From IMG/VR virus record IMGVR_UViG_3300045284_000385, positions 1,908-65,907 of that record: a stretch of 64,000 nucleotides of DNA; one strand, 5' to 3'. The stretch's first letter is position 1, and each line of letters starts with the position of its first letter. The position numbers and the translations under genes were made by a program. The notes under the pieces are model-generated. The model did no database searches. It had not been told where the DNA came from and worked only from the letters and a program-made list of their open reading frames with translations. Source of the stretch: a virus (lineage: Duplodnaviria > Caudoviricetes). Shown here one piece after another: positions 26,713 through 58,229 of the stretch.

Positions 26713-27105
26713 ATGAAGCTCAACACCAAAAGCGCGATCGTCAAGGTAGATCCTGATCAGCGGCTCGTCTTCGGATGGTTCTCAGTGATCGAGGAGAATG
26801 GCCAACCTGTAGTGGATTCGCAGGGAGATGTGATCGATGAGGTTGAGCTTGAAAAGGCTGCTTATGACTTCGTGTTGAACGCCCGGGTTGCCAGTGAGAT
26901 GCACAAGAACATCGGCATCGGTGACTTGGTTGAGAGCATGATGTTCACGAAAGAAAAGCAGAAAGTTCTTGGAATCGATCTTGGCAAGGTGGGCTGGTGG
27001 GGAGCCTTCAAAGTGAGTGATGATGCTGTCTGGGAATCGATCAAGAAGGGCGAGTATCCCGCGTTCTCAATCGGTGGCCAAGCTGAAAGTCGGGAGGCTG
27101 CCTGA
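26713..27105 (+). CDS. XkdF-like prohead protease domain protein
   Basis: QRLVFGW, VDSQGDVI..ELEKAAYDF, EMH, VES, IKKGEYPAFSIGG. Confidence 0.88.
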   Translation: MKLNTKSAIVKVDPDQRLVFGWFSVIEENGQPVVDSQGDVIDEVELEKAAYDFVLNARVASEMHKNIGIGDLVESMMFTKEKQKVLGIDLGKVGWWGAFKVSDDAVWESIKKGEYPAFSIGGQAESREAA

Positions 27106-28022
27106 TGGATAATAAAGCGAATCTGTTAGCAGCGATTCTTCCTGGAGCAGTCGTTAATTTGGCATGGGGAGCCTCAACCGATGATGTTGGAGTTGTTGGA
27201 TATGAGATTGAGAGATGTTCTGGAGTCAATTGCGCAGGATTCGCTAAGATAGGCACTGCTCCTGCTACTTCCTACATTGATTCTACTGTTATCGTGGGGA
27301 CTTCTTATTCCTACCGAGTGTTGGCAGTCGATACGGATGGGAATAAGTCGCCCTATTCCAATGTGGTGACTGTTCTGGTCCAAGACATATCTTCCGGCAC
27401 GGCGCCAACTGTGCCAGGTCAGTTAACTGTTTCGGTTACGATCTCAGCTATTCAACCGGTTACTCCGCCACCCCCACCGCTACCTCCACCTGCTTGGACA
27501 CATTCAGACATTGGGAATGTTGGCATCTCTGGAAGTGCCGACTTTGGAACTTCTACCTTGACCGTAGCCGGATCAGGTGCAGATATCTGGGGAGCAGCCG
27601 ACGCCTTCCATTTTCTCTATCGACCGCTAAATGGAGACGGCCAGCTTATCGCACGAGTCGCGAGTGTGCAGAATACTAACGTCTGGGCTAAGGCCGGAGT
27701 GATGATTCGAGAGACGCTGGCGCCATATTCCAGTAACGCTATTATGTATGTTGCACCTAACGGAGCCAATTTTCAGATCCGCCCTAAGACTGGGGACCCC
27801 AGCAGTTACATCGTTGGAACAACGTTGACAGCTCCATATTGGGTGAAGATTGTACGGTCTGGAAACGTTCTTACTGGCTACCATTCCGCTGATGGGATTA
27901 CCTGGAAGCTCGTTTCGTCCAGCACCATAGTAATGGTTCCAAATGTTTTCCTAGGTTTGGCGGTGACGGCGCACGACAATACTAAGCTCAATACTTCGAC
28001 ATTTGACAATGTGACACCATAA
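27105..28022 (+). CDS. FN3 + poly-Pro linker + ConA-like (DUF1349-type) protein
   Basis: VNLAW.ASTDDVGVVGY...YSYRVLAVD; orphan TAPTVPGQLTV strand; GSGADIWGAADAFHF...WAKAGVMIRE. Confidence 0.85.
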   Translation: MDNKANLLAAILPGAVVNLAWGASTDDVGVVGYEIERCSGVNCAGFAKIGTAPATSYIDSTVIVGTSYSYRVLAVDTDGNKSPYSNVVTVLVQDISSGTAPTVPGQLTVSVTISAIQPVTPPPPPLPPPAWTHSDIGNVGISGSADFGTSTLTVAGSGADIWGAADAFHFLYRPLNGDGQLIARVASVQNTNVWAKAGVMIRETLAPYSSNAIMYVAPNGANFQIRPKTGDPSSYIVGTTLTAPYWVKIVRSGNVLTGYHSADGITWKLVSSSTIVMVPNVFLGLAVTAHDNTKLNTSTFDNVTP

Positions 28023-29029
28023 TGGCAAGGAAACTCATCAATCTGAAGCTTGCTGAAGTTGCACTCGTCGATTCACCTGCCAATCCAGGGGCGACAGTGC
28101 TGCTGTACAAAAGGGCTGAAGAAGGCGGATCAGAATCTGTTCGCGTAGCGGAAATCCAAGGCAAGTCGGTAGTAATCGACAAAAACGGACATCCAATAGG
28201 ACGATTTATACGTTGGCAGGATATGAAGACAAAAGGTCAGCCGGTCGAGAAGGGAATTGACTTTGCCTGCCCGAACTGCGAAACGCCTTTGCAGAGCATG
28301 TATCAGGACGGAGAATATCAGATACCGAATTTTTGCGGAGAATGTGGAGCCTCGCTCAGCCTGATGGCTACGGGGGGCAATATGCAAAAGAAAAAGGAGA
28401 AATCTAAGATGCCTGAATTCAAGAAAGAAGATCTGACTCCCGAAGCCAAAGCTTATGTGGAAGGTATTGAGAAAGAATTGAAGGATTCCATAGTGGCTCA
28501 AGCGGAATTGAGCAAGAGGCTCGAAACCGCTACAAAGAAGGAAGAGCCAGAAGACATCTGGAAGGGCGTCAACCCAGCGGTCAAGAAACAGTTCGAAGAG
28601 ATGCAGACCAAGACCGCCGAAGCCGAGCGGATTGCCAAGTCTGAGCGCGAAGCCAGGGAGCTGTCAGAGTTCACTAAGAAAGCGGAGAAGGAATTCTCCT
28701 ATCTGCCAGGTGAAGCTGCGGCCAAGGGAAAGATCCTGCAGGCTGTCAATAGTAAGCTCTCGAAGGAAGAGACTGCAGAGCTTGAGAAGCTGCTCAAGGC
28801 TGCGGATGAGATTGCCAAGAGCGGCAAGGTCTTCTCCGAGATGGGCGCCACGGGAAGCGGAAACATTGCGGATTCCGATTCCGCTGAAGGCCAGATCAAT
28901 GCTCGTGCGGCAGAACTGGTTTCCAAAGGCGTTGTCAAAACAATCATAGAAGGGATTTCGAAAATCGCCAAAGAGGACCCCAGTCTTTACGAGAGTTATC
29001 GCAAAGAGGTCGTGCGACGCGCCAACTGA
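28022..29029 (+). CDS. Head scaffold/protease-associated protein with zinc ribbon
   Basis: LAEVALVDSPAN motif, CPNC/CGEC, coiled-coil C-half; probable internal start at 28409 (AAGGAG RBS). Confidence 0.75.
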   Translation: MARKLINLKLAEVALVDSPANPGATVLLYKRAEEGGSESVRVAEIQGKSVVIDKNGHPIGRFIRWQDMKTKGQPVEKGIDFACPNCETPLQSMYQDGEYQIPNFCGECGASLSLMATGGNMQKKKEKSKMPEFKKEDLTPEAKAYVEGIEKELKDSIVAQAELSKRLETATKKEEPEDIWKGVNPAVKKQFEEMQTKTAEAERIAKSEREARELSEFTKKAEKEFSYLPGEAAAKGKILQAVNSKLSKEETAELEKLLKAADEIAKSGKVFSEMGATGSGNIADSDSAEGQINARAAELVSKGVVKTIIEGISKIAKEDPSLYESYRKEVVRRAN

Positions 29030-29112
29030 ACAATTAGCTCTCCAGTATAAATAATTCTGGAGGTCGGAAGCCTTGAGCTCGGAACCCCGAAACAACGATG
29101 GAGGTTTCGACA

Positions 29113-29502
29113 ATGGCTTTCGAGCAACCAGGATTCAAAATCACTCTTCCGGCCGGTGGCGATCTTTCCAGCTCACAGTATAAATTCGTCAAACTGAACA
29201 CCAGCGGTCAGGCTGTTGATATCGCCGCTGCGACGGACATTCCTTGCGGTGTTCTTCAGAACAAACCAACATCAGGACAGGCAGCCGAGATCATGGTGGC
29301 TGGCATATCGAAGATACAAGGCGATGTGAACCTTGCCAAGGCCGATATGATCGGATGTTCTTCTGATGGTCAGGCCTCTGTTGTGGTGGCCGGCACCGAC
29401 ACGACAAAGTATGTCTTGGGCCAGGTGATCGATGACAATACTGTCGCCGCAGGTTTGATATCCGCGCTGATTCAATGCTACAACCCGCATCGAGGCGCTT
29501 AG
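29113..29502 (+). CDS. Capsid decoration/cement protein (DUF2190-like)
   Basis: DLSSSQYKFVKL, GVLQNKP..GQAAEIMVAGISK; upstream of the capsid gene. Confidence 0.8.
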   Translation: MAFEQPGFKITLPAGGDLSSSQYKFVKLNTSGQAVDIAAATDIPCGVLQNKPTSGQAAEIMVAGISKIQGDVNLAKADMIGCSSDGQASVVVAGTDTTKYVLGQVIDDNTVAAGLISALIQCYNPHRGA

Positions 29503-29690
29503 TGGACGTTTACAAAGAAGTTCGGTGTCAAATGTGTGGCAAGCTGCTCTGCAAGGTATCAGGCGAGGGGTGCAAAATAGAAATCAAGTGTCGCTGCAAA
29601 CGTCTTGTCATTGTTGAGACCAGCTCGCTTCAAGAACCCAATTTCGAAAGGGCCGTTGTTCCAAAAGAATTGAGGTCTGCGACGGTCTAG
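29502..29690 (+). CDS. Mu Com-like zinc-finger translational regulator
   Basis: EVRCQMCGKLL...IEIKCRCK; GTG coupled to upstream stop. Confidence 0.8.
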   Translation: MDVYKEVRCQMCGKLLCKVSGEGCKIEIKCRCKRLVIVETSSLQEPNFERAVVPKELRSATV

Positions 29691-29725
29691 GAAGCACCGC
29701 ACTAATTTATTGCCTGCCGAGATCT

Positions 29726-29776
29726 GAGTCCACGGGACCGGAATCCTAAAACCAATTCAGGAGGTTTTAGGTTTCC
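29726..29776 (+). promoter_or_regulatory. Hairpin occluding the capsid translation start region
   Basis: GGAATCCTAAAACC (29740-53) pairs with GGTTTTAGGTTTCC (29763-76), 13 of 14 pairs, enclosing AGGAGG and ending at the ATG. Confidence 0.7.
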
Positions 29777-30745: not shown

Positions 30746-30789
30746 GGAAGTTGGACTGATCAATCATCCTTAGTTTTTCGAGGTACTTT

Positions 30790-31170: not shown

Positions 31171-31171
31171 A

Positions 31172-33331: not shown

Positions 33332-33495
33332 TGATGGCTGAAGAACCCATCATACAGCACACTCCCACTGATAAACCTGGCGAAACATTTCATGCGCCAG
33401 GGAGCATCATGGAGTTGCCGCACGGGAAGAAATATCGCCTCACTGAAAAGGGTTGGGAATTGATCGATGAAAAAAACATTCCTCCTGCTGCTTAA
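33331..33495 (+). CDS. 54-aa protein (not in ORF track)
   Basis: TAATG coupling; MMAEEPIIQH...LPHGKKYRLTEKGWELI. Confidence 0.55.
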   Translation: MMAEEPIIQHTPTDKPGETFHAPGSIMELPHGKKYRLTEKGWELIDEKNIPPAA

Positions 33496-36448
33496 CCTGC
33501 TGGTCAGTTCCTACTCGTTTGCTCAGATTCCTTCTACTTTGGGCTGGTATGACATCCCGAACAGCAAGATCCGGCCTGTCTGCTCAACCGATCCAACTGT
33601 TCAGGGAATTGACGGTTGCCCCGGTGTGACGATTGCGTGGAACAGTGGAGTAATGGACACGCTTCGGAATCGTCTGATTGTTTGGGGCGGCGGACATGGC
33701 GATTATTTCGGCAATGAAATCTACGCGGTCAATCTGAGTACTCTAACCACAACTCGAATCACCAATCCAGGCTTACCAGTGGCTCCGAGCGGGCAGAATC
33801 CAGAAGCGATTGCTGGAGGAACTCAGCCTAATAGTCGGCACACTTACGATGGTATCTCTTATATGGCGAACATCGATAAGATGTTTGTTTATGGAGGGTC
33901 ATTAGCCCAATTAGGATTTGCTTCTCGCGGTACGTGGCTTTTCAATTTCGCCACGAATCTTTGGGAAGATCGCACCAACGCAACCGGCACGATTCCAAAC
34001 GGAGATTACGGCATCGTCTCTGCCTATGACCCCAACACAGGCCTGGTGTTCCTCCACGACAACTACAACCTGTTTTCCTACAACGCCAGCACAAACGCCT
34101 ACACGCGACTGACGAACAATGCCAGTGCGGCCATCGACTACCACTGTGCGGCGGCAATCGATCCGGTCCTGAAGAGGTTCGTGATTGTCGGTGGGAATCT
34201 GACCTGGTCATGGTACGACATTGCGCCTGGAAGCTCTTATGTCATACAAACCCTACCTCAGACAGGAGCCGGTAGTTTGGTTGGTGCAGGCTATCCAGGT
34301 TTTGATTGGGATTCTATAACCGGACATCTTGTTGGATGGCCTGGAGGAAACAGCGTCTACGCCTACAACTGGACAACTTCATCCTGGACGACTCAGACCT
34401 TTACAGGCGGACCAGCCGCTTTGAGCAACGGCACGATGGGCCGATTCAGTTTCTCTCCAGCTACTGGAGTATTTGTTGTTTACGGTTCAGTCGATGCCGA
34501 TGCGTTCGTTTTACGGACGGAGTTTCCGACTTCTTTCCAGGTTACATCGACGAATACGGGAACTCTTCCGTTCATGGTTGGGCTAGTCTTTAAGAAAGGC
34601 GATTTCCCTAGCAACGCCGTTCTGGATATCACCGATCAACAGGTCATCATTAAGCGCAGGTGGAACGATGGGAGTGTCAAGCATGCCATTGCCTCTGGAC
34701 AGGTGGCGCTGACGGCGAATACCCCCAAAACTGTTAACGTCTTAACCTCTTCCGCAAGCGTCCCCGCGGGTCTTACTTCTGCCAATATTACGGCGGCTGC
34801 TCCCTCGGCCAGTGTGCAACTTGGGGCGATAGGAACGGTTAATCTCTCTTCTTTGCTTGCCGCTCCCTTCAGGACTTGGATCACCGGTCCTGAGATGGTG
34901 GAGTGTCACTACCGATCGAATGTTGGGAGCGACACTTCGCTTAATGTCTGGTTCCACGTTCGTCTTTATAAGGCTGGCCGGATCTGGGTTCGAGCCATCG
35001 TCGAGAACGGTTATGTGGGCGTGTCGGTAGGAAAATCCTATATTCCCACGATCATCATTGGGGGAACGACGGTCTACAACAATGGCGGCGCGACGCTGAA
35101 TCATTATGCAAATACGCGATACAGCTCTGAGGGATGGATCGGAGGAAACCCTGCGGTAACTCCAAAACACGTCACGCAATATCTGATCGATACGAAGCTT
35201 GTTCCGAATTACTGGAAGCGAAATCCAAGTAACCTGAACGGCCTCTTGCAGGTTTACACCCCCATGTCAAACGGAAGTCTGGAGGCCACAATGGGGAATG
35301 CTGGTTATCAGCCAGGGATAGGATTGCTTCCTCAGTGGGATGCTCTTTACATTACGAGCACAGACGCTAGAGCGTTTAGATCCTGTTTGGCTAATTCCTC
35401 ACATCTGAATAGTTACGGAATCGTTTGGAGAAACTCTTCCACTCAGCTTGTTGTTAAGCCTTCTGACAATCCTACCCCGTTAAACGCTTATGGCTGGGTA
35501 GCTGGTCCGTTAACGTGGGAGATGAATCATTACCCGTCTGAGGGCTACACCGCTTACTTGGTCAGCGGTGACTATTGGCACTATGAGACGATGCTTTTCA
35601 ACACAGCCATGTCGCTGATGCTACTGAATGGTGTTGGCGGAAGAGGCAACGGAGTGAGTTGTCTTCTAACTGGAGAAACGCGCGGGACGGCCTGGAATCT
35701 TCGGACACTCTCACAATATGATGGGATATTCCCGGCTGGCGATCCTATCGGAACTGAGTATCAAACGCTCCTAGCCAATAACATGACTTTTTGGCAAACT
35801 GTTAAAAACTCACTCACAGCTCCAGGTCTGGGAGATGTCTATGAATATGGTTTCCCGTATGGGGATGGAACGATAGCTCCGTGGCAGCAACACTTCTTTG
35901 ATCAGTCTGTAGGTATGGGCTCAGACCTTGAACCTCTCGCGAACATGACGGTTTATAACGATGTCCGAACGTTTCTGGACAAGTGGCCTGTCGGTATATT
36001 GGGAGATGCAACAGGATTCTTTTTCAATTATGCCAGTGCTTACAATGCCAAGATTTCAGACTCCGCTGGCGGTGGGGACCCATTAACTTTTTATCCAACC
36101 TGGCTACAGGTCTGGAATGCAAGCAAGGCAAATGGAACTATTCCTCCAAGTCCAGTATTCGACAACATTCTAAAGGGAAGTTCTGGCAGCGATCCGGGCA
36201 TAGCCACGCAAGGTTACTGGGGCAATCTGATGCCCGCCATTGCCTACGCGGTGGATCATGGAGCGGCTGGAGCATCTGCTGCGTGGGCGCGCTTAATTGG
36301 AGCAACTAATTTTTATGGGGCACCAGGAAGCGCAACGGTTGAGGGTAGTGGCTTCGACGACACCCCGCAATGGGGCATTGTGCCGCGTTCAACGGTTCAA
36401 AGTTCAATCCCGACAGCTCCGACCAACGTTCGTGTGATTGGGAACTGA
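33467..36448 (+). CDS. Secreted beta-propeller + polysaccharide-lyase-like (RIFT barrel/alpha-toroid) protein with C-terminal PTAPTNVRV tag
   Basis: Signal peptide ending SFA|Q; WGGGH.DY.GNEIY and SRHTYDG propeller motifs; LPF..G..F.KGD..RWNDGSVKHA; ETRGTAWNLR. Confidence 0.7.
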   Translation: MKKTFLLLLNLLVSSYSFAQIPSTLGWYDIPNSKIRPVCSTDPTVQGIDGCPGVTIAWNSGVMDTLRNRLIVWGGGHGDYFGNEIYAVNLSTLTTTRITNPGLPVAPSGQNPEAIAGGTQPNSRHTYDGISYMANIDKMFVYGGSLAQLGFASRGTWLFNFATNLWEDRTNATGTIPNGDYGIVSAYDPNTGLVFLHDNYNLFSYNASTNAYTRLTNNASAAIDYHCAAAIDPVLKRFVIVGGNLTWSWYDIAPGSSYVIQTLPQTGAGSLVGAGYPGFDWDSITGHLVGWPGGNSVYAYNWTTSSWTTQTFTGGPAALSNGTMGRFSFSPATGVFVVYGSVDADAFVLRTEFPTSFQVTSTNTGTLPFMVGLVFKKGDFPSNAVLDITDQQVIIKRRWNDGSVKHAIASGQVALTANTPKTVNVLTSSASVPAGLTSANITAAAPSASVQLGAIGTVNLSSLLAAPFRTWITGPEMVECHYRSNVGSDTSLNVWFHVRLYKAGRIWVRAIVENGYVGVSVGKSYIPTIIIGGTTVYNNGGATLNHYANTRYSSEGWIGGNPAVTPKHVTQYLIDTKLVPNYWKRNPSNLNGLLQVYTPMSNGSLEATMGNAGYQPGIGLLPQWDALYITSTDARAFRSCLANSSHLNSYGIVWRNSSTQLVVKPSDNPTPLNAYGWVAGPLTWEMNHYPSEGYTAYLVSGDYWHYETMLFNTAMSLMLLNGVGGRGNGVSCLLTGETRGTAWNLRTLSQYDGIFPAGDPIGTEYQTLLANNMTFWQTVKNSLTAPGLGDVYEYGFPYGDGTIAPWQQHFFDQSVGMGSDLEPLANMTVYNDVRTFLDKWPVGILGDATGFFFNYASAYNAKISDSAGGGDPLTFYPTWLQVWNASKANGTIPPSPVFDNILKGSSGSDPGIATQGYWGNLMPAIAYAVDHGAAGASAAWARLIGATNFYGAPGSATVEGSGFDDTPQWGIVPRSTVQSSIPTAPTNVRVIGN

Positions 36449-36452: not shown

Positions 36453-37106
36453 ATGGCTGCGCGAGTTCTGATAGCCAGCGACGATTTCAATAGAGCAGAC
36501 GGCGCTCTAGGAGCTAATTGGGCGGATATAGATCCAACTTGGGGAACAGTCTCCATAACATCTAACAAAGTCGGAGGGGGATCGGGTGAAGGCGCCGCAT
36601 CTCGATGGATTGGCGCCGGATCATTTATTGATGACCAGTATGCCAGCGTTGTTGTAGGTGGAATTGCGACTACAAATGATTGGGTCGGAGCAATGGTACG
36701 GGTTGGGGCTGGTACTAATGCCTCCAGAAGTTATTATCTACTAGCGTTTACCGATACCGCACCACAGCAGACATATTTGGTCAAGGTAGTAGTTGGCACA
36801 AGTACCACGCTAAAAACTGATACTTCTGTCAGTTGGGCAAATGGAGACAGGATCGAGATAGAGGTAGAAGGAACAACCCTTCGTGGCATGAAAAACGGCG
36901 TGGCTCTTGGCGGAGGTTATACAGTAACGGATTCTAGTATATCTAGCGGATTGCCTGGAATATGGTGTAACAGCAACACACACTTAATAACTGGAGATGA
37001 TTGGCAGGGAGGAAACCTGGTAGCAGCTCTACCATTCTTTATGCCGGCTATGAAGTATCGGCCTTTCCCGTTCAAGCCAGGAAGTTCAAATTTATCGAGG
37101 TTTTAG
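36453..37106 (+). CDS. ConA/lectin-like virion protein
   Basis: SDDFNRADGALGANW...DSSISSGLPGI...DDWQGG. Confidence 0.65.
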   Translation: MAARVLIASDDFNRADGALGANWADIDPTWGTVSITSNKVGGGSGEGAASRWIGAGSFIDDQYASVVVGGIATTNDWVGAMVRVGAGTNASRSYYLLAFTDTAPQQTYLVKVVVGTSTTLKTDTSVSWANGDRIEIEVEGTTLRGMKNGVALGGGYTVTDSSISSGLPGIWCNSNTHLITGDDWQGGNLVAALPFFMPAMKYRPFPFKPGSSNLSRF

Positions 37107-50805: not shown

Positions 50806-52311
50806 ATGATCAAAAGACTCTTTCTAGTTTTCCTTTTGCTTCAATCACAGCTTGCGTTCTCAGCCACGTACTATGTCCGCAAGGATGGATCAGACGCAAA
50901 TTGCAATGGGTCCGCAAACGTAGCGGACTCTGTCGGAGTACGCCCGAATTGTGCTGAACTCACGATCGGGGCTGGAGTTGGCCATGCTGTCAATCCGGAT
51001 GACATTGTGCAGGTCTGGACTGGAACATGGGATGAGAGTGTCTCGAATTGGACTTCTGGAACAATTGGTCATCCGATCTGGATCAAAGGGCAAGGCCTGA
51101 CGACGATCTGGCATCATATCGGCCACTGCAATGGGTATACGAGCGCTCCGGTGAATATGTCCAATAAGAGCTATATCCGAATTTCAAATTTTAATTTCGA
51201 TGGAACAGATGGCGGAGCGACCTTCTACAGTTTGGCTAACGGGGGAGCAGTGAAGGGCCTCGAAATTCTGAACAATTTTTTCTCCCATAATGGGAATGAT
51301 GGCATAAACGAGGCCTGCACGCCCGCGCTAACCTTCAACTCGAAAGTCATCTACCTCAACAATGCGAATAGTCCAGCGAATACCAATGAAGGCCATATTA
51401 TTGACGGCAATGCTTTCGACACGAACAAGGGCTACAACATTCTCTTAAACGGAATTACGGCCAATCTTGCTCCCGACGGGACAACCGGAGCAGGGATCAT
51501 TATCCGGAACAATACCGCTAAGAATCTGTCGCCTAGTGCTCAGATCGTTTTATACTCCGGCCTCGAGTTCGTCCATGCAGGGAGTGGGAGTCATAATATT
51601 TGGGTCTATGGAAATGAAACAGGCCCATCGGCTAGCGGAGGAGGATTGAAATTTGATGCTACGGTTACTTATTCTCTAGTCGAGCTAAACAAGTTCCACG
51701 ATATGGGTTATGGGACAGGAAAAAACACAGTTGGAATTGAGTACGAGTCGGATTGCCATGACAATACGATTCAGTTCAATCAAGTTTATCGGATGGGTCT
51801 AGAAGGCATTCGCGCTGGGTCATACGGGACGACCAATGCTGCTCGCATGAAGGTAATCGGAAACACGATTTGGGATTGTCCTTGTGGGATTGTGGTTGCT
51901 AACTCTTCAGGCTCAATTTTTCAAGACAACATCATTTCACTTAACACCGGAATTGGCAACGCGATTTCGACGACGGATCATTCCGTGAATAATATCTTCC
52001 GGAACAACATTCAGTGGCGGAATGGGGCGGCCAACGTTGCCTACAAAAACTTCCCGGGGAGCAGTCTATGCACGACCACTCCCAATCTCACTCTGGCTCA
52101 ATGGTCTGCAGCAATGGGGGATACAGGCTCGATCTGGGCTGATCCTAAGTTTGTTTCGGTAGCCGCGGGATCTGTAAATTTGAACTTACAGGCCAGCAGT
52201 CCGGCGATCAGGGCAGGTTTTGCAGGTAACGATATGGGAGCTTTGCAATCCGGAACAGCTCCGGACACTACTCCTCCATCGGCACCGACCGGGTTGATCA
52301 AGATTAAGTAA
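50806..52311 (+). CDS. Secreted parallel beta-helix (pectin lyase-like) protein with C-terminal PSAPTGL tag
   Basis: Signal peptide ending AFS|ATYYV; Asn-rich coils; DPKFV...LQASSPAI.AG..DMGA; DTTPPSAPTGLIKIK stop. Confidence 0.82.
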   Translation: MIKRLFLVFLLLQSQLAFSATYYVRKDGSDANCNGSANVADSVGVRPNCAELTIGAGVGHAVNPDDIVQVWTGTWDESVSNWTSGTIGHPIWIKGQGLTTIWHHIGHCNGYTSAPVNMSNKSYIRISNFNFDGTDGGATFYSLANGGAVKGLEILNNFFSHNGNDGINEACTPALTFNSKVIYLNNANSPANTNEGHIIDGNAFDTNKGYNILLNGITANLAPDGTTGAGIIIRNNTAKNLSPSAQIVLYSGLEFVHAGSGSHNIWVYGNETGPSASGGGLKFDATVTYSLVELNKFHDMGYGTGKNTVGIEYESDCHDNTIQFNQVYRMGLEGIRAGSYGTTNAARMKVIGNTIWDCPCGIVVANSSGSIFQDNIISLNTGIGNAISTTDHSVNNIFRNNIQWRNGAANVAYKNFPGSSLCTTTPNLTLAQWSAAMGDTGSIWADPKFVSVAAGSVNLNLQASSPAIRAGFAGNDMGALQSGTAPDTTPPSAPTGLIKIK

Positions 52312-52318: not shown

Positions 52319-55300
52319 ATGGAACACTCGACCAAAACATTTCAGGTTCCTTCAGGAGCCATAGGAACAACGGTGAGCGTTGCGCATGGCCTCTCGGTTG
52401 CGCCGAAATTCGCAATACTAAAATGGACGAACCGGACTGAAGGTACTGATACTGCAGGAAGATCCGATCAGTTGCGCGGCCTTGCGTTTTTGGCTTCTCC
52501 AACTAATAGGGCTGCGGCATGTACTCGATCAACGGATAACGTGTCCACCACGTCAACGGGCAAGAGGTATCACGAAGATGCCTGCGTGATGGCCTGCACC
52601 AACAATGGCGGTCTTGATGGCCTGATGGATCTGCAAAGTTGGGATGCAACCAACGCGGTGTTTGTCGTCGATGATCAGTTTTCTCAATCGGCGAACATTC
52701 GGGTGATCGTGGATTTCTTTACTGGAGACGATATCACGAACGTGACAATTGTCGATTTCCTTCATCCGACCAGCACGGGAAATCAAGACATCACAACCCC
52801 CGGATTCCAGGCGGATCAAGTTTTTATTATGAGTACGGGTGCAACGGCTGTCGCTCCTATTGGTACTGATGACTCATTGATATGTTTTGGCGCCGGACAT
52901 TCTTCGAGCAAGCGAGGAGTCTGGGTTGGAGATGCGAATGATGGCATTGTGCTAGGAAATACGGTGACGCGGAGCTATTGCAACGGATCCGAAATTGCGG
53001 CCATGTTCGACACCGGAGCGGTCAACATCATCGAAAGGGCCGATTACTCGGGAGGAATAACGAATGGCTTCCGCTTGAATTGGCTTGAAGTATCAGGCAC
53101 TCAAAAACATTGGATTGCGCTTGTCATCCAGGGGGGGAATTGGACCGTTGAATCGTTCAATACCAAAACGGATGGCACCGATATTGTGGTTACGGGTGGA
53201 TTCAATGCTCTTGGCGGATTCTTGGTCTCAGCATTTAAGGCTGTAGATGCCGCCGATACTCCAAGCATTCAGGATCGAATTTCGATGGGCTCTTTTGCGG
53301 GTTTGTCTGCTAGAGCTGCTCTTGCCACAAGTGACCGGCACGGGGCCACCACTGCGACGCATGGCACAACAGCGATTAGCTACACTGCGGTTGCTATACG
53401 ATTGGACGAGACGAGTGATGCCGTGCTGGCAGCGATGGATATTAAGTCAATGTCGGATGGCAGCAGTACAGGGGTCACGTTTGTAATGGATACTCCCGAA
53501 CCGACAGCGGCCTCTTTTGGATGGGTCGTTCTGTTCGGATCGAGTAGTAGCACTTTCGCCTATATCGGTGGAGGAGCCGCGGTAATGAGTGGCGCCGCTG
53601 CTACCCTGTACAGCCGGGCCGCTATGACGTTCACCTATATCCCCGTGTTTCCTGGAGAAATTACTCTCGGCTGGAATCCAAACCCCGAGCCAGATGTGGC
53701 TGGCTATATCGTCCGATGGGGAACTCAGTCAAGGATTTATACGAACAGTCAGAATGTTGGCCTTGTTAGCCAGGTCACGATCGGCGGTTTGACGAGGGGC
53801 GTGACGTATTATTTCGTTCTCGCAGCCTATGATACCTCTAACAATGTCGGACCCAATTCCGCAGAATTTTCAGCTCAACCCACTGTTGGGGCTCTGGAAA
53901 TTGGAGGCGCTGCTCTCACTCAGGTATTAAGCGGATTCAATTATTCCCCATCCGGTGGCGTGGCTGTGGCCGGCGCTGCTGATTATTCGCGTGATCTGTT
54001 TTTCAATATCTCTGGCGGAGCGGTTATGGGCGGGGGAGCTCAATGCAATCGGGAGTGGGCCCGTAACATGTCTGGCGGATTGAACGTTTTTGGGAATGCC
54101 TTCACTGGCTATCAAGCGTTTGGAGTTAGTACGTTTGTTTATGCAGGCAGCGGAAATGTCCTGATATCCGGGGATGCTCTCATCAATCATGTCTGGGACT
54201 ATGTTGGTGGAGGATCATTTTCCATTCTGGGATCGGCTTTAACAGCCTTTCCGAGAGGCGGTGAGGATGCGGTTATCGTATGCGTCGAAATCGACTTCGA
54301 CAACGGGACTCAATATTTCGGATTCGAGGGAATCTCAACTCCGTCTCAATGGTACCAAGACGAACTGGTAAGCATCGGACAAATCCGGCGTGAGGTCCCA
54401 CTGCTGCCCGGGGAATTTCAGGTTGCCGATGTGGAGCTTGTCTTCAACAATGTGGGGAATAAGTTCTCGATTCTGAAGGCGGCTCAGCCATTTCGAAATC
54501 GCACGGCCAGAATTAAATGCGGATTACTAAGCAATGGGTTCGCAGGCCTCTCGACTCTTTTCACCGGGAAAATTAGCAGTTGGACTTTCTCCGATTCTCT
54601 TTGCCATGTCGTTGTGCGGGATGTGAGCCTGGATAGATTCCGAGTCAATCTTTCTGGCCAGCTCGGCAAAACCGATTTCCCGAATCTCCCCGATGGCCAA
54701 ACGCTTTATCTCATCCCTAGAATTTACGGAACCGTCAGCTCAGCTATGGGGGCCCTGCCTGCCTATCGGACCAATCAGGTGAGCCCTTTTCGCTACGTGG
54801 TCGCCCGCCATGCCTGCAAGTCAGTCTTACAGGTCTACAATTATGGGACTCTGATGACCAGCGGCTATTCCATTGTGACCACTTCCATAAATGGCACGAC
54901 GATGACTTGCCTCGATTTCTTGACTGATCCACAAATTTCAAGTCGGACGAACGAATTTGAGATTACTGTGAACGTCTCTGGGAAAATAGATGCCAGCCTT
55001 AACCTGATCACTAATCCAGTGGCTCAGCTTCAGGACTATCTTTTGAATGAGGTTGGGGTCCCAAGTGGAGATATCGATTCGACCGTATTTAATGCGATGC
55101 AAATCGCCGCCGCGGATCAAGAACTATTTGGTGATTTTGCGATAACTGACAGTGGGCTCACGCATATGGATGTGGTCACCCGTTTCTCTGAATCCTTCGG
55201 GATGCCGTTCTATGTGTCTCGAGCTGGCCAATATCGGGTGTTCTTGTTCTCCGGGGCCGCGCTCGTCGACTTAGAATCTATCCCGCTACTCAGTGACAGT

Positions 55301-55918
55301 GATGATATCCTGCGCAATAGTTTCAAAATCGATTACAACGTTGATGTCGCCTCACGCCTTCAGTACAACTATGCCTATCAATATGTCCTGAATTACTTCG
55401 AACATCAGCCAGACCTAATCGATGCAAACGAGCTAGCCAATATTGGTTTTGACGTGCGTCTGAACACCGATCTGTGGCATGTCAGAGATTTAGGGACGGC
55501 TCTATCAACGGCCTCTGATCGCATGGCTTATTTGCGCGAGAACGTTCAACTGGCTTCGTTCGATTTGCCAATCTATCAATATGCGCTCGACCTCAATGAT
55601 TACTTCCGGCTCACTCATTATCAGGGCGTCTCATCGGACGGGCTTGGATATGCTGCCATCCTCTTCAGAATTTTAAGTCTCACGATTTCTTTGCAGCCGA
55701 AGTCGATGCAGGTATCTGTGATGGGGTACAAGTTTGGCGAAAACATTCCTTTCTGGAGGAGATATATCAAGCTAGGGGATGAATCGGCGATCTCTCCGCT
55801 TTGGACAACGGCAACATCGAGCGATAAGGATTATGGATACCTGGCAGATGAGTCCGATCCAACCGGGTCGCCTGAAGGAACACTCGGAACAAGCGATCCG
55901 GCGAAACTATTACTGTGA
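52319..55918 (+). CDS. Tail tip/hub protein with N-terminal beta domain, repeats and inserted FN3
   Basis: FN3 ITLGWNPN.EPDVAGY...YYFVLAAYD at ~53653-53880 within FxYxxSGGxxxxGxA repeats; C-half IPRIYG, NPVAQL hub motifs. Confidence 0.75.
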   Translation: MEHSTKTFQVPSGAIGTTVSVAHGLSVAPKFAILKWTNRTEGTDTAGRSDQLRGLAFLASPTNRAAACTRSTDNVSTTSTGKRYHEDACVMACTNNGGLDGLMDLQSWDATNAVFVVDDQFSQSANIRVIVDFFTGDDITNVTIVDFLHPTSTGNQDITTPGFQADQVFIMSTGATAVAPIGTDDSLICFGAGHSSSKRGVWVGDANDGIVLGNTVTRSYCNGSEIAAMFDTGAVNIIERADYSGGITNGFRLNWLEVSGTQKHWIALVIQGGNWTVESFNTKTDGTDIVVTGGFNALGGFLVSAFKAVDAADTPSIQDRISMGSFAGLSARAALATSDRHGATTATHGTTAISYTAVAIRLDETSDAVLAAMDIKSMSDGSSTGVTFVMDTPEPTAASFGWVVLFGSSSSTFAYIGGGAAVMSGAAATLYSRAAMTFTYIPVFPGEITLGWNPNPEPDVAGYIVRWGTQSRIYTNSQNVGLVSQVTIGGLTRGVTYYFVLAAYDTSNNVGPNSAEFSAQPTVGALEIGGAALTQVLSGFNYSPSGGVAVAGAADYSRDLFFNISGGAVMGGGAQCNREWARNMSGGLNVFGNAFTGYQAFGVSTFVYAGSGNVLISGDALINHVWDYVGGGSFSILGSALTAFPRGGEDAVIVCVEIDFDNGTQYFGFEGISTPSQWYQDELVSIGQIRREVPLLPGEFQVADVELVFNNVGNKFSILKAAQPFRNRTARIKCGLLSNGFAGLSTLFTGKISSWTFSDSLCHVVVRDVSLDRFRVNLSGQLGKTDFPNLPDGQTLYLIPRIYGTVSSAMGALPAYRTNQVSPFRYVVARHACKSVLQVYNYGTLMTSGYSIVTTSINGTTMTCLDFLTDPQISSRTNEFEITVNVSGKIDASLNLITNPVAQLQDYLLNEVGVPSGDIDSTVFNAMQIAAADQELFGDFAITDSGLTHMDVVTRFSESFGMPFYVSRAGQYRVFLFSGAALVDLESIPLLSDSDDILRNSFKIDYNVDVASRLQYNYAYQYVLNYFEHQPDLIDANELANIGFDVRLNTDLWHVRDLGTALSTASDRMAYLRENVQLASFDLPIYQYALDLNDYFRLTHYQGVSSDGLGYAAILFRILSLTISLQPKSMQVSVMGYKFGENIPFWRRYIKLGDESAISPLWTTATSSDKDYGYLADESDPTGSPEGTLGTSDPAKLLL

Positions 55919-55924
55919 AACATC

Positions 55925-56203: not shown

Positions 56204-56210
56204 GTAGAAA

Positions 56211-56585: not shown

Positions 56586-56590
56586 AAAAA

Positions 56591-57538
56591 ATGGGTTTCG
56601 TAACTTCTGACTATGCGCCTGTAGCCATGCAAACCATTTTTGGTGAGCTCGGTCTGAGCTTTCCATATATCAACAACGCCGGGGATGCCACGATATCGGT
56701 CAATTCCACGATAAGTTCGGTCTTCCAGGTTTATCGAGACTTGACAATCAATGCAGGAATCATCCTGACTGCCTTCGCAAGTCCACAGATTGTGGTCTGT
56801 CGGAATCTGACTTTTGGGAATACTAATTCTCAGATTTCGATAAACAGCATGGGCGCGAATGGTGGATCTGGCCAGGCTTCAGGTGCAGGCGTGGGCGGGG
56901 AAGGTGGAATGTTTGGCGCGCAGAGTGTCGCCGTTATAGGAGATAACTACACCGATTATCTCAGACTTTTTGCGATAGGTGGAGCGGCTCAGGCTGGAGG
57001 CGCGGTTGGGCTTCCAGGAGCAAGTTTGGCCGCATGGTTGAGTCCAATGTCGTTGATGCATTTGATCAGGCTGGGGGCACTTGGCGGCGGAGGCGGCGGA
57101 GCTGGTGCTGGTGGGACTGCATCAGGTACGGCCACAGGCGGGACGGCGGGACGGCTAGGGGCTGCGGGAGGTGCTACTGGAGTCGCCGGTGGTGGAGGTT
57201 CAGGTATTGGAGCGGGAGGTTCTGGTGGAGGAAATGTTACGAGCACTGGCACGGGCGGTCAAGGTGGACCGGGCGGAGGGATATTGCTCGTTATCTGTGA
57301 TCAAATTTTGAACGCTGGCGGTTTGATTAGCGCCGATGGGGCCAACGGGTCTCCTGGAATCAGCAATGCTGGAGGCGGAGGCGGCGGCGGCGGTGGTGCC
57401 GTGTGGGTCATTGCCAATAAAGCAATAGTGCCTCCATCTGTTCGGGCAATGGGCGGCAGCTCAGGATCAGGCGTTGGAACAGGCACCGCTGGGGGCGCAG
57501 GTGGTTCTGGAGTCACTTTCTTAATGAGGGCCGCATAA
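56591..57538 (+). CDS. Glycine-rich tail fibre protein
   Basis: Poly-Gly runs, ISADGANG..GGGGGG.VW. Confidence 0.75.
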   Translation: MGFVTSDYAPVAMQTIFGELGLSFPYINNAGDATISVNSTISSVFQVYRDLTINAGIILTAFASPQIVVCRNLTFGNTNSQISINSMGANGGSGQASGAGVGGEGGMFGAQSVAVIGDNYTDYLRLFAIGGAAQAGGAVGLPGASLAAWLSPMSLMHLIRLGALGGGGGGAGAGGTASGTATGGTAGRLGAAGGATGVAGGGGSGIGAGGSGGGNVTSTGTGGQGGPGGGILLVICDQILNAGGLISADGANGSPGISNAGGGGGGGGGAVWVIANKAIVPPSVRAMGGSSGSGVGTGTAGGAGGSGVTFLMRAA

Positions 57539-57551
57539 GGAGATATTTGAA

Positions 57552-57953
57552 ATGAAGAAAATTCTAGCATGCTTTTTACTATGGGTTGCTATCGCGCAAG
57601 CGCAGGTGCCCAGTCAGGTCACTTTGGGATGGTTTCCGGTTACTACCTTATCGACTGGGGAGCCATTGCCGGCAGGCCTGGTGCTCAAATACCACTTGTA
57701 TAGGGGCAAGGTTCAGGCGGGTCCGTGGGCAGAGGTCACTCCGGTTGGCGGCATTACCGCTCCATCGGTATTGGATCCAGCCGGGAGAATGACGTTTACG
57801 GCCGATGTGGTAGCTGGAGAGCCATTCTATGGTGTCGTGGTGGATGCACCCGGGAGATTGCCATCGCTAGGAAGATGGATAGATCTGACCGGAGCAGCGG
57901 ATGTGCTCAATGATATTTCGGTGACTGTTTCGAAGACCGTTACCATTCCATGA
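57552..57953 (+). CDS. Secreted FN3-like small protein
   Basis: Signal peptide ending AQA|Q; VTLGW.PVT...G.PL....YHLYRG; AAGGAG RBS. Confidence 0.7.
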   Translation: MKKILACFLLWVAIAQAQVPSQVTLGWFPVTTLSTGEPLPAGLVLKYHLYRGKVQAGPWAEVTPVGGITAPSVLDPAGRMTFTADVVAGEPFYGVVVDAPGRLPSLGRWIDLTGAADVLNDISVTVSKTVTIP

Positions 57954-57963
57954 GAATGCGCTT

Positions 57964-58146
57964 ATGGATACGCAATCGGGGATAATCAAGCAAGCAATTG
58001 AGCTTGGTCTCAAAATCAAAAACATGGAAGACGAGATTCGGGGAATAGACTTTCAGATTGAGATGCTCAAGAAAACCAGAGAGCAGATAGAGTTTCTCTT
58101 ATCTAAGCTTTGGGATGCTGAGGGAAAGTTGAAGCGGGGAGCATGA
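57964..58146 (+). CDS. Small coiled-coil protein
   Basis: 60 aa heptad pattern. Confidence 0.55.
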   Translation: MDTQSGIIKQAIELGLKIKNMEDEIRGIDFQIEMLKKTREQIEFLLSKLWDAEGKLKRGA

Positions 58147-58229
58147 CAAACCAAGAACTGGTTCCTGACATCATTGCGCCGACTCCTCCGGTGACTTTGA
58201 TTGTTGTGGTGCCACCTCCAGGGCCGTAG
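58143..58229 (+). CDS. 28-aa peptide resembling an isolated FN3 A-strand (not in ORF track)
   Basis: GGGGAG RBS-like, ATGA coupling; MTNQELVPDIIAPTPPVTLIVVVPPPGP; fills the gap to the next RBS. Confidence 0.6.
   Translation: MTNQELVPDIIAPTPPVTLIVVVPPPGP

What the first reader, a model, noticed from the sequence alone, without database searches (positions are those of the whole stretch)
27105..58229. Candidate split-FN3 (donor-strand) docking system for loading accessory enzymes onto the virion
Seen: two large proteins stop right after a lone motif, 33467-36448 (SIPTAPTNVRVIGN*) and 50806-52311 (DTTPPSAPTGLIKIK*). The same motif occurs as an orphan inside 27105-28022 (TAPTVPGQLTVSV) and as a free peptide at 58143 (DIIAPTPPVTLIVVV). 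Established: PxAPxxL is the usual first (A) strand of bacterial FN3 domains. Seen: the FN3 domains in the repeat-rich proteins 38287-40080 (~38890-39110) and 52319-55918 (~53653-53880), and in secreted 57552-57953, begin directly at the B strand (TIAW / ITLGW / VTLGW) with no PxAP strand before it. In both repeat proteins the FN3 appears inserted in the middle of a repeat unit. Each tagged protein lies upstream of one incomplete FN3 in the same module. Inference: the tags complete the incomplete FN3 folds in trans, as in pilus donor-strand complementation. That would give modular display of depolymerases or lectins on head and tail fibres, with 27105 and 57552 as possible chain extenders. I do not know of this being described for phages.
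Basis: partly seen in the sequence, partly recalled or inferred. Interest (0 to 1): 0.9.

Follow-up and report, generated by a model that had tools for sequence, protein, structure and literature searches.

The report
Strand-tag and open FN3 docking pair
Two exported sugar-degrading enzymes of this phage end in a short conserved tail that looks like the first strand missing from FN3 domains encoded next to them, a pairing that also recurs in bacterial operons and may be an undescribed way of clipping proteins together.

Summary
The window is a complete 65.9-kb siphovirus-like phage. The tails are real: P0002 ends PTAPTNVRVIGN*, P0004 ends PSAPTGLIKIK*. The FN3 domains of P0003 and P0005 start at strand B.

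The tails are neither chance nor decay:
- 19 of 120 homologues of the P0002 enzyme end the same way.
- Unrelated secreted neighbours in the same loci do too.
- In a Kelch-like family, 56 of 72 members end DTTPPxxPxGLxVx*, and 54 of the 56 stop exactly six residues after the last proline.

In four bacterial genomes, a lipoprotein whose C-terminal domain is an FN3 without strand A sits directly upstream of such a tagged protein.

AlphaFold2 leaves the P0002 tail free and the P0005 FN3 six-stranded. A complex prediction gave weak support only (0.46 against 0.01).

Points against:
- Both tagged phage enzymes carry signal peptides, whereas P0003 and P0005 do not.
- FN3 domains of this subfamily that lack strand A are common without any tag nearby.
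- The 57552 protein is not a confirmed FN3, and the 28-aa ORF is unsupported.

Verdict: trans-complementation is plausible (about 0.45). Loading onto the virion is unproven (about 0.2).

The parts
33467..36448 (+). P0002, an exported enzyme of 993 aa. Signal peptide residues 1-20, Kelch-type beta-propeller about 21-350, then a beta-sandwich plus alpha/alpha-barrel domain about 355-974.
   Evidence: Translation. Pfam Kelch-type hits, E 1e-10, below the curated cut-off. AlphaFold2 on residues 345-993 with 120 sequences: pLDDT 94.4. Foldseek best match is a PL26 exo-rhamnogalacturonan lyase, E 1.4e-6. 264 homologues at E<=1e-10.
36389..36445 (+). C-terminal tail of P0002: STVQSSIPTAPTNVRVIGN. It is a linker followed by an A-strand-like tag.
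   Evidence: The tail has pLDDT 51-65 and no secondary structure in the model. 19 of 120 family members end with the same kind of tail straight after the conserved WGIVPR motif.
50806..52311 (+). P0004, an exported right-handed beta-helix protein of 501 aa with signal peptide residues 1-20.
   Evidence: Translation. Weak NosD and parallel beta-helix repeat hits. Relatives P0007, P0008 and P0012 share the region just after a signal peptide. The source's own gene call (P0006, 434 aa) starts further downstream.
52261..52308 (+). C-terminal tail of P0004: PDTTPPSAPTGLIKIK.
   Evidence: It is nearly the same as the tail APPTGLIKIN* of the fused enzyme in phage contigs L002/L005.
38287..40080 (+). 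P0003, 597 aa, no signal peptide. It is an array of roughly 18-residue repeats with an inserted FN3 lacking strand A (nt 38890-39108).
   Evidence: HMM E 1.4e-13, starting at strand B; repeat spacing. No Pfam or PHROG family found.
52319..55918 (+). P0005, 1199 aa, no signal peptide. It lies in the position of a tail-tip or central-fibre protein and has an inserted FN3 lacking strand A (nt 53660-53881).
   Evidence: fn3 profile positions 13-78 of 84, 21.3 bits, below the cut-off of 25; 14,696 representatives at E<=1e-3; six strands, core pLDDT above 90. The virion role is inferred only from its position after the tape measure gene. No family was found for the rest of the protein.
57552..57953 (+). 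Small exported beta-sandwich protein of 133 aa.
   Evidence: Signal peptide followed by QVTLGW. FN3 identity is not confirmed. The nearest Atlas clusters are viral, and one is named 'secreted protein family'.
27105..28022 (+). P0001: N-terminal FN3, an internal A-strand-like segment (nt 27399-27437), a proline linker, then a DUF1349-like domain.
   Evidence: DUF1349 E 3.9e-5, below the cut-off. Hoc-like head decoration phrog_10993, E 7e-11. The internal segment is not C-terminal and does not fit the fixed-length tail.
58143..58229 (+). 28-aa ORF carrying APTPPVTLIVVV. Its status as a gene is unsupported.
36453..37106 (+). 217-aa protein. By eye, its N-terminus (DDFNRADGALGANW) resembles the N-terminus of the FN3-bearing protein that follows the tagged enzyme in L002.
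   Evidence: compared by eye only. PHROG 2804, 'virion structural protein', E 1e-7.

Best explanation
The short C-terminal tails are donor strands. Each is a flexible proline-rich linker followed by the canonical first (A) strand of an FN3 domain. It ends with a free carboxyl group a fixed few residues after the strand. The tail pairs in trans with an FN3 of the 'xVxLxW...GYxVYYG' subfamily that lacks its own A strand (the 'socket'). That clips the tagged protein non-covalently to whatever carries the socket.

In bacteria the socket is the C-terminal domain of a lipoprotein. The tagged partner is a secreted Kelch-like protein encoded by the next, overlapping gene, beside a polysaccharide-lyase-like enzyme.

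The phage carries both halves. The tags are on two Sec-exported glycan-active enzymes. The sockets are inserted in two large repeat proteins encoded just downstream.

Shown here:
- The tails exist, are conserved and have a fixed length.
- The FN3 domains lack strand A.
- The two parts are encoded next to each other.

Inferred:
- That they bind each other.
- That in the phage the enzymes end up on fibre proteins. This would have to happen outside the cytoplasm, for instance after lysis. Otherwise the exported enzymes dock on host or phage-exported sockets instead.

My odds are about 0.45 for trans-complementation in general and about 0.2 for virion loading.
For: 1. Selection on the tail.
- In the Kelch-like family, 56 of 72 homologues (down to about 31% identity) end DTTPPxxPx[GSN][LVI]x[VI]x*.
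- 54 of those 56 stop exactly six residues after the last proline.

2. Portability.
- 19 of 120 members of the P0002 enzyme family carry the tail, one of them doubtful.
- In L082, L085, L103, L113 and L135, neighbouring secreted proteins of other folds carry it too.
- In L053 and L084 the tagged protein sits beside an untagged enzyme homologue.
- Tails within one locus resemble each other by eye, for example three ending RIR/RIR/RVR in L135 and RVIP/RIVP in L082. I ran no test on this.

3. A conserved operon.
- In L053, L044 and L145 the order is lipoprotein, then proline/alanine linker, then an FN3 without strand A at the extreme C-terminus.
- This is followed, with overlapping stop and start, by a secreted Kelch-like protein with the tail.
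- In L053 and L044 the lyase-like enzyme comes next. L058 is a variant of the same arrangement.
- Pfam fn3 matches three of these sockets above its cut-off, but only from profile positions 12-15 of 84.
- L113 has one protein with a signal peptide, an FN3 without strand A, and a C-terminal tail.

4. Co-occurrence.
- All 6 non-window loci with such an FN3 fall among the 14 tagged loci of 122.
- The hypergeometric p is 7e-7, or 4e-6 after merging duplicates. These values are overstated; see evidence against.

5. A related phage.
- L002/L005 has a fused beta-helix, Kelch, FN3 and lyase enzyme ending APPTGLIKIN*.
- It is followed at once by a protein with an inserted FN3 without strand A, and then by connector genes.

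6. Structure.
- The P0002 tail is free in a pLDDT-94 model.
- The P0005 FN3 is six-stranded.

7. Complex prediction (ESMFold2): P0005 432-528 with the last 32 residues of P0004.
- Verdict: weak support. Score 0.46, best of 3 controls 0.01.
- The mark was reached by 58 of 80 solved complexes and 2 of 110 mismatched pairs.
- At 0.60 or under, it was reached by only 7 of those 80 and by both mismatches that passed.
- The runs agree in at least 93% of contacts, and the partner's pLDDT is at least 59.
- The pass may be from memory, because every complete FN3 structure holds this strand pairing within one chain.
Against: 1. P0002 and P0004 have Sec signal peptides and P0003 and P0005 have none. In the infected cell, tag and proposed socket are therefore in different compartments.

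2. Lacking strand A is the usual state of the first or only unit of this FN3 subfamily.
- 50 of 149 top representatives have their first unit within 70 residues of the start.
- By eye, at least 19 of those 50 begin 2-4 residues after a signal-peptide cleavage site.
- The domain may simply be complete with six strands.
- Without strand A, both ends of the domain lie at the same pole. That alone would explain its use as an insertion. This point is my inference from the known FN3 topology.

3. I found 11 viral loci by a DNA pattern for this subfamily.
- 10 gave a domain hit. In 9 of these the start of the domain could be read, and I saw no clear A strand (two are ambiguous).
- None has a tail-like C-terminus in the DNA fetched, which was only 1-14 kb.

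4. Five tagged loci (L082, L084, L085, L103, L135) have no such FN3 within 6-24 kb.

5. The co-occurrence count rests on few independent origins. L053, L044 and L145 are one orthologous operon, and all loci were sampled through one enzyme family.

6. No pairing was shown physically. The only complex prediction is weak, and no interface was reported.

7. The flank of the P0005 FN3 had no alignment depth, so an intramolecular strand cannot be excluded. One beta-bridge appears at residue 441.
Confidence: 0.45

Rival explanations
1. The tail is a conserved C-terminal signal with another partner or purpose. Candidates are recognition by a secretion, sorting, processing or glycosylation system of exopolysaccharide loci, or binding to a non-FN3 partner. 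On this view the neighbouring FN3 domains are ordinary glycan-binding or spacer modules that belong to the same kind of locus.
For: - All tagged proteins are exported. Many lie in XrtA/PEP-CTERM exopolysaccharide loci: PrsT at E 5e-124 and PEP_O_lig_1 at E 2e-93 and 1.5e-115.
- The fixed distance to the C-terminus would suit any reader of a free C-terminus.
- Five tagged loci have no FN3 without strand A nearby.
- Other equally conserved tail types exist in the same families: GxGGT* in 24 of 120 and [IL]FADSFE...* in 15 of 120. Four proteins of genome G934 end ...F.D.FE*.
Against: - The tail has no membrane helix or basic cluster, and no curated sorting-signal model matches it.
- Its sequence is exactly the conserved start of an FN3 (DTTPPxxPxGL).
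- This view does not explain the gene pairing with a lipoprotein whose only recognised domain is an FN3 that begins at strand B.
Confidence: 0.28
2. The tail acts within or between copies of the tagged protein itself. It could fold back on its own domain, close the Kelch propeller, or mediate homo-oligomerisation. It would not dock on another gene's product.
For: - Many tagged proteins contain Kelch propellers or their own complete FN3.
- The L113 protein has both the tail and an FN3 without strand A, so self-association is conceivable.
Against: - In the AlphaFold2 model of P0002 345-993 the tail is unstructured with pLDDT 51-65, while the rest scores 94. The Kelch domain was not included in that model.
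- The tail sits on at least four unrelated folds.
- 650-aa family members with no Kelch and no FN3 carry it.
Confidence: 0.1
3. The tails are non-functional leftovers of C-terminal FN3 domains lost by truncation or recombination, and their nearness to FN3 genes is coincidental.
For: - The tail is identical in kind to the start of the complete FN3 domains seen in the same loci. 20 of 29 HMM hits are preceded by DTTPPSxPxxL.
- P0001 has an internal copy that looks like a deletion scar.
Against: - 54 of 56 tails in one family have the same length, with D, T, T, P, P each kept in 46-55 of 56 sequences at down to about 31% identity.
- By eye, none of the 120 enzyme homologues has a full FN3 directly after the catalytic domain that could be the ancestor.
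- Random truncation would not stop 2-7 residues after the [GN][LV] position in every case.
Confidence: 0.05

Closest known systems
Type V pili of Bacteroidota (FimA/Mfa1)
   Same: An Ig-like fold loses its N-terminal strand. The groove is then filled by a C-terminal strand of another polypeptide, outside the cytoplasm, and the subunits are made as lipoproteins. I know this partly from recall. From the papers I saw only the search listing and the starts of the abstracts of PMC13655056, PMC5954841 and PMC9046445.
   Different: - In type V pili the strand is removed by a protease and the result is a homopolymeric fibre. Here the FN3 is encoded without the strand, and the partners are different proteins (enzyme and anchor).
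- I looked for no protease. One protein with both parts (L113) is the only hint of polymerisation.
- There is no sequence relationship.
Donor-strand complementation and exchange in chaperone-usher pili and in TasA fibres
   Same: An incomplete beta-sandwich is completed by a strand from another chain. For TasA I saw only the listing and the start of the abstract of PMC9674648. The chaperone-usher case is recalled.
   Different: - In those systems the missing strand is the last one or a different one, the donor is N-terminal, and fibres are formed with a dedicated chaperone and usher.
- Here the fold is FN3, the donor is C-terminal, and the apparent use is to tether enzymes.
Cohesin-dockerin pairs of cellulosomes
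   Same: Glycan-active enzymes carry a small portable C-terminal module. It docks them onto a scaffold or cell-surface anchor encoded nearby.
   Different: - A dockerin is a folded calcium-binding domain of about 70 residues that binds the face of a complete cohesin.
- Here the tag is about 14 residues and would become part of the partner's fold.
- Pfam found no cohesin or dockerin.
Ig-like and FN3 domains on phage structural proteins (Hoc-like decoration)
   Same: FN3 and Ig-like domains are inserted in or appended to head and tail proteins. P0001 matches a Hoc-like PHROG. The general literature on these domains is recalled. The review PMC8718954 was seen only in a listing.
   Different: Those domains are regarded as complete, weakly glycan-binding accessories. 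A role as a receptacle for a strand from another protein has not been proposed in anything my searches found.
Engineered split Ig-like pairs such as SpyTag/SpyCatcher (recalled, not searched)
   Same: A short peptide tag completes a truncated Ig-like domain supplied on another protein.
   Different: SpyTag/SpyCatcher is man-made, from a CnaB2 domain, and is locked by an isopeptide bond. Nothing here suggests a covalent link.

Membership tests
Fibronectin type III domain (Pfam PF00041) | Significant match to the family profile | tested here: met
   - Bacterial sockets: 38.8, 35.3 and 27.1 bits against a cut-off of 25.
- P0005 scores only 21.3 bits in Pfam, but 14,696 representatives match at E<=1e-3 by phmmer and my own subfamily HMM gives E 5.5e-29.
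- P0003 scores E 1.4e-13 with that HMM.
Fibronectin type III domain (Pfam PF00041) | Seven-stranded sandwich including the N-terminal A strand | tested here: not met
   - Profile alignments start at position 12-15 of 84.
- AlphaFold2 gives six confident strands for P0005. The flank has pLDDT 49-68 with a single bridge.
- P0003 and the bacterial sockets were not folded.
Fibronectin type III domain (Pfam PF00041), for the 57552-57953 protein | Significant match to the family profile, or an FN3 fold | tested here: not met
   - No Pfam hit at E<=0.01.
- hhalign probability 1.6%.
- The Atlas model has pLDDT 0.61 and its nearest folds are CarboxypepD_reg-like sandwiches. One feature hit at 0.89 went to a cluster in which 27% of members carry fn3.
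Donor-strand complementation systems | An Ig-like fold encoded or matured without one edge strand | tested here: met
   This rests on prediction and profile alignment, not on a solved structure.
Donor-strand complementation systems | The missing strand is supplied by another polypeptide and binds in the groove | tested here: inconclusive
   - A matching strand sits at the C-terminus of neighbouring gene products.
- The complex prediction gave weak support only: 0.46 against a best control of 0.01. The mark was reached by 58 of 80 solved complexes and 2 of 110 mismatched pairs. At 0.60 or under it was reached by only 7 of those 80 and by both mismatches that passed.
- No interface was reported.
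Donor-strand complementation systems | A dedicated assembly factor (chaperone and usher, or a maturation protease) and fibre formation | not tested
   I made no search for such factors. Only the L113 protein has both socket and tail.
C-terminal sorting signals (LPXTG, PEP-CTERM, GlyGly-CTERM, T9SS C-terminal domain) | A motif followed by a membrane helix and a basic cluster, or a folded sorting domain of about 80 residues, matching curated models | tested here: not met
   - The tails end 6-8 residues after the last proline.
- No NCBIfam or Pfam sorting model matches P0002, P0004 or the L044 Kelch protein.
- Other homologues do carry a T9SS domain (PF18962) in place of the tail.
Cohesin-dockerin | Dockerin calcium-binding repeats on the enzyme and a cohesin domain on the scaffold | tested here: not met
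   No such Pfam hits.
Polysaccharide lyase family 26-like fold (for the P0002 catalytic part) | A beta-sandwich plus alpha/alpha-barrel architecture similar to a solved PL26 enzyme | tested here: inconclusive
   Foldseek gave E 1.4e-6 and probability 1.0, but TM only 0.33-0.37 and 10% identity. I did not examine catalytic residues.

The most novel reading that the evidence does not exclude
A widespread, undescribed two-part docking system, a 'split FN3'. Exported proteins that end in DTTPPxxPxGLxVx-COOH donate the missing first strand to FN3 domains encoded without it. Bacteria would use it to tether soluble Kelch-like and glycan-degrading proteins to lipoprotein anchors in exopolysaccharide loci. 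This phage would have captured both halves, so that its fibre proteins can be armed outside the cell, after lysis, with exchangeable exported depolymerases. A second tail type (...IFxDxFE-COOH) hints that strand-tag docking may be a general principle.
Probability: 0.2. Interest if true: 0.9.

Novelty: new variant of a known kind. Interest (0 to 1): 0.75.

Why it matters
If the tail really completes the open FN3, three things follow.

1. It would be a natural, genetically compact way to clip enzymes onto anchors. That explains a conserved but unannotated C-terminal tail on exported proteins. Here it was seen on 56 of 72 members of one family and 19 of 120 of another.

2. It would give a function to the very common FN3 domains that start at strand B.

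3. For phages it would mean that depolymerases can be attached to fibres non-covalently and swapped between phages as tag-bearing cassettes. It would also mean that virions could be armed after lysis. That bears on host-range evolution and on how phage enzymes are annotated.

It also offers a natural peptide-and-domain pair for protein engineering. Even if binding fails, the fixed-length tail remains an unexplained conserved feature.

Tried and rejected
- **Read-through or frameshift into the next gene.** The sequence after each stop does not continue an FN3. P0002 is followed by MAARVLIASDDFNRADG... and P0004 by MEHSTKTFQ.... Rejected.

- **Intramolecular docking of the tail.** The tail is free in the AlphaFold2 model. 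The Kelch domain was not in that model.

- **Decaying remnant.** Rejected.

- **Known sorting signals.** No model matches.

- **Close relatives of P0004, P0003 and P0005 in viral contigs.**
  - None for P0004 and P0003.
  - Only FN3-level matches for P0005.
  - P0004 has 3 database hits, one of which is the window's own protein.

- **Bacterial genome scan with the enzyme alignment.** 0 of 34 enzyme homologues analysed carry the tail. Eight weaker loci of the 42, L071-L078, were not analysed.

- **First ORF filter.** It hid L044's tagged gene behind a spurious antisense ORF and trimmed ORFs cut by contig ends. I redid the scan on stop-to-stop frames.

- **L085.** The FN3 domains that my first HMM aligned only from position 21 turned out to have their own A strands, so this locus is not a socket case.

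- **A second FN3 site in genome G001.** It is a 5843-aa protein with canonical A strands and is irrelevant.

- **Searches for more Kelch operons.**
  - 1 of 201 genomes of the family of G001, the query's own genome only.
  - 3 of 401 of the order of G202: the query's own genome, G498 and G229.
  - 2 of 401 of the order of G001: the query's own genome and G934, which carries the other tail type.
  - 1 of 400 of the class of G202, the already known G202 only.

- **Solved-structure and Pfam searches of the rest of P0005.** Nothing found.

- **Literature.** Three searches found no description of FN3 strand complementation in trans in phages or lipoproteins:
  - 'donor strand' + 'fibronectin type III' + 'bacteriophage': 1 paper, a biofilm-matrix review seen in the listing only.
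  - 'strand complementation' + 'FN3': 1 unrelated paper.
  - 'donor strand' + 'fibronectin type III' + 'lipoprotein': 0 papers.
  
  Subscription journals are not covered, and supplements were not consulted.

- **Not done.** No genomic context for the tagged database proteins.

Full report
**What the window is.** The window is nearly all of a 65,907-bp IMG/VR virus record with direct terminal repeats. PHROG matches place a major head protein at 29777-30745 (E 3e-92), a major tail protein at 42310-43035 (E 5e-30) and a tape measure protein at 45082-48891. It is therefore a siphovirus-like phage. The finding spans its head-to-tail-tip structural region.

**Checking the observation.**
- The two tails are as described. 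P0002 (33467-36448) ends SIPTAPTNVRVIGN* and P0004 (50806-52311) ends DTTPPSAPTGLIKIK*.
- The ORFs that follow do not continue an FN3, so read-through or frameshifting is not the explanation.
- The internal segment in P0001 and the 28-aa ORF are present as sequence.
- The FN3 of P0005 aligns to Pfam fn3 only from profile position 13 of 84. A subfamily HMM that I built starts at strand B in both P0003 and P0005.
- In P0003 the domain interrupts an array of roughly 18-residue repeats.
- The 57552 protein could not be confirmed as an FN3.
- P0002, P0004 and the 57552 protein all begin with typical Sec signal peptides. P0003 and P0005 do not. This finding does not mention it.

**What the tagged proteins are.**
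- P0002 is a Kelch-type propeller fused to a domain that AlphaFold2 models at pLDDT 94.4 as a beta-sandwich plus alpha/alpha barrel. The nearest solved fold is a PL26 rhamnogalacturonan lyase, at low TM-score.
- P0004 is a right-handed beta-helix protein.
- Both look like polysaccharide-active enzymes.
- In the P0002 model the last 19 residues are unstructured with pLDDT 51-65.

**The tail is a family feature, not an accident.**
- The catalytic domain of P0002 has 264 database homologues at E<=1e-10.
- I placed the end of the conserved WGIVPR motif in the 120 best. Of these:
  - 19 (one doubtful) end a few residues later with a proline-rich linker plus P-x-[AP]-P-x-[NG]-L-x-[VIL]-x*;
  - 24 end in G-x-G-G-T* or G-T-L-G-T*;
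  - 15 end in ...[IL]F-A-D-[SG]-F-E...*;
  - the rest stop at once or continue into other domains, none of which is, by eye, an FN3 directly after the catalytic domain.
- The tail was found on the enzyme in 2 of 28 viral loci, which are one lineage (L009/L013 = L002/L005).
- It was found on the enzyme in 0 of 34 genome loci analysed.
- It was found on the enzyme in 7 of the 46 metagenome loci (of 60 fetched) where the domain end could be placed.

**The tail is portable.**
- In the metagenome loci, neighbouring exported proteins of other folds end the same way.
  - In L135 a beta-helix protein, a third protein and the enzyme fragment end PPAAPSGLRIR*, APAAPAHLRVR* and APAAPSGLRIR*.
  - Similar pairs occur in L082, L085, L103 and L113.
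  - Tagged neighbours sit beside untagged enzymes in L053 and L084.
- A strict pattern hit 16 of 1442 retained ORFs against 2 of 2976 shadow ORFs.
- L103 and L113 are XrtA/PEP-CTERM exopolysaccharide loci.

**The tail is under selection.**
- I searched with the Kelch-like protein of L044, which is 381 aa.
- 56 of 72 homologues, down to about 31% identity, end DTTPPxxPx[GSN][LVI]x[VI]x*.
- D, T, T, P and P are each present in 46-55 of the 56.
- 54 of the 56 stop exactly six residues after the last proline.
- A decaying remnant would not keep both its sequence and its exact length.

**The matching half.**
- The P0005-type FN3 (xVxLxW...GYxVYYG) is very common, with 14,696 representatives at E<=1e-3.
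- In L053, L044 and L145 a lipoprotein (lipobox, proline/alanine linker, and in L145 two further Ig-like repeats) ends in one such FN3 that starts at strand B and stops 1-4 residues after the domain.
- The next gene overlaps it. That gene is the exported Kelch-like protein with the tail.
- In L053 and L044 the lyase-like enzyme, itself a lipoprotein, follows. The N-terminus of the L044 socket protein is cut off by the contig end.
- L058 has a lipoprotein-FN3 followed by two exported proteins ending LPTSGV* and LPPSGVQVR*.
- Pfam fn3 matches these sockets above its cut-off, but only from profile positions 12-15.
- In L113 one protein has a signal peptide, an FN3 without strand A, a complete FN3 and the tail.
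- A Kelch homologue without the tail (L144) has no such FN3 in its 3-kb locus.
- In phage L002/L005 the tagged fused enzyme is followed at once by a protein with an inserted FN3 lacking strand A, and then by adaptor-like and head-closure-like genes.
- Across the 122 non-window loci sampled through the enzyme family, all 6 with such an FN3 are among the 14 tagged loci. The hypergeometric p is 7e-7, or 4e-6 after merging duplicates.

**Structure and complex.**
- AlphaFold2 on P0005 405-560 with 37 sequences gives a confident six-stranded core (pLDDT above 90).
- It gives a poorly defined flank (pLDDT 49-68) with one bridge at residue 441.
The flank had no alignment depth, so it is not excluded either.
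- The single complex job paired P0005 432-528 with the last 32 residues of P0004. It returned 'weak support':
  - score 0.46, best of 3 controls 0.01;
  - the mark was reached by 58 of 80 solved complexes and 2 of 110 mismatched pairs;
  - at 0.60 or under it was reached by only 7 of those 80 and by both mismatches that passed;
  - the runs agree in at least 93% of contacts, and the partner's pLDDT is at least 59.
- Every complete FN3 structure contains this strand pairing within one chain, so the pass may reflect memory of the fold.

**What speaks against the reading.**
- The compartments differ: the enzymes are exported, and the fibre-like proteins are not.
- Lacking strand A is the normal state of the first unit of this subfamily. 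50 of 149 top representatives have the first unit within 70 residues of the start. By eye, at least 19 of those begin right after a signal-peptide cleavage site. Internal units of tandem arrays often have a proline-rich A-strand-like segment (520 of 1004).
- I found 11 further viral loci by a DNA pattern. 10 gave a domain hit, and in 9 the start of the domain could be read. All 9 lack a clear A strand (two are ambiguous). No tail-like C-terminus is present, although the flanks were only 1-14 kb.
- Five tagged loci show no such FN3 nearby.
- The co-occurrence statistic rests on few independent origins.
- An FN3 without strand A has both termini at the same pole. That by itself explains its use as an insertion. 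This point is my inference from the known topology.

**Most likely mechanism.** I take the tail to be a donor strand for FN3 domains without strand A (about 0.45). Shown: the conserved tail, the missing strand and the gene adjacency. Inferred: the binding. In the phage, three arrangements remain open:
- enzymes clipped to P0005 or P0003 after lysis (about 0.2);
- exported enzymes docking on host lipoprotein sockets;
- exported enzymes docking on the phage's own exported 57552 protein.

The rivals are a C-terminal signal of another kind (0.28), self-association (0.1) and a remnant (0.05).

**Comparison with what is known.**
- The principle is that of type V pili, chaperone-usher pili and TasA: donor-strand completion of an Ig-like fold. 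In use it resembles cohesin-dockerin pairs.
- It is not a member of any of these families. The fold, the polarity of the donor, the absence of fibres and the absence of known assembly factors all differ. Pfam found no cohesin or dockerin.
- Three literature searches found no description of FN3 completion in trans. The papers named as analogues were seen only as search listings and starts of abstracts. Supplements were not consulted.

**Verdict.** The mechanism is plausible but unproven, and virion display is speculative. No claim here rests on the unpublished genome G229.

Noticed in passing
Proteins P0049-P0118; loci L147-L149 of genome G934: There is a second conserved C-terminal tail type...[IL][IV]F-x-D-[GSE]-F-E(x)*. 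It ends 15 of 120 homologues of the P0002 enzyme. It also ends four different exported proteins of one genome (G934). A third type, G-x-G-G-T*, ends 24 of 120. These may be further portable strand tags.
   Followed up: partly
L113:8428-9738 (- strand): One exported protein has both an FN3 without strand A just after its signal peptide and a C-terminal PAPTNVRVR* tail. It could in principle close on itself or polymerise head to tail.
   Followed up: no
L085:8322-24256: A low-GC contig carries a twice-repeated cassette. Each copy has a large protein with a type IV pilin-like N-terminus, then one or two exported enzymes with the tail, then an FN3-rich protein ending in what looks by eye like a peptidoglycan-binding domain. 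These FN3 domains have their own A strands.
   Followed up: partly
L014-L036 (viral loci): Most viral homologues of the P0002 catalytic domain have no signal peptide and carry long extra C-terminal parts. They look like virion-borne fibre or spike proteins. The signal-peptide form in this window and in L002, L003 and L011 is the minority.
   Followed up: no
window 38287-40080: P0003 is almost entirely an array of at least 20 repeats of about 18 residues (G-T-V-T-S-S-G-A-L-x-K-K...). It has no Pfam, PHROG or NCBIfam family. P0005 has looser glycine- and alanine-rich repeats around its FN3.
   Followed up: partly
window 56519-57538: A 339-aa ORF is extremely rich in glycine and alanine (long GGxGG runs). 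No Pfam family was found. It lies between the tail-tip gene and the small exported protein.
   Followed up: no
window 50806-52311: The database copy of this gene product (P0006, 434 aa) starts 67 codons downstream and so lacks the signal peptide. Relatives conserve the region just after a signal peptide, so the longer ORF is probably the right one.
   Followed up: partly
L007:7839-8804 and L008:7926-8339: Two other viral contigs encode proteins with a signal peptide or membrane anchor followed directly by a P0005-type FN3 starting at strand B. A further domain follows, which I did not identify.
   Followed up: no
L152, L159, L157, L156/L158: In other viral contigs the same FN3 subfamily sits at the extreme C-terminus of proteins of about 320-340 aa, or directly after a signal peptide. 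This is the same placement as in the bacterial lipoprotein sockets.
   Followed up: no
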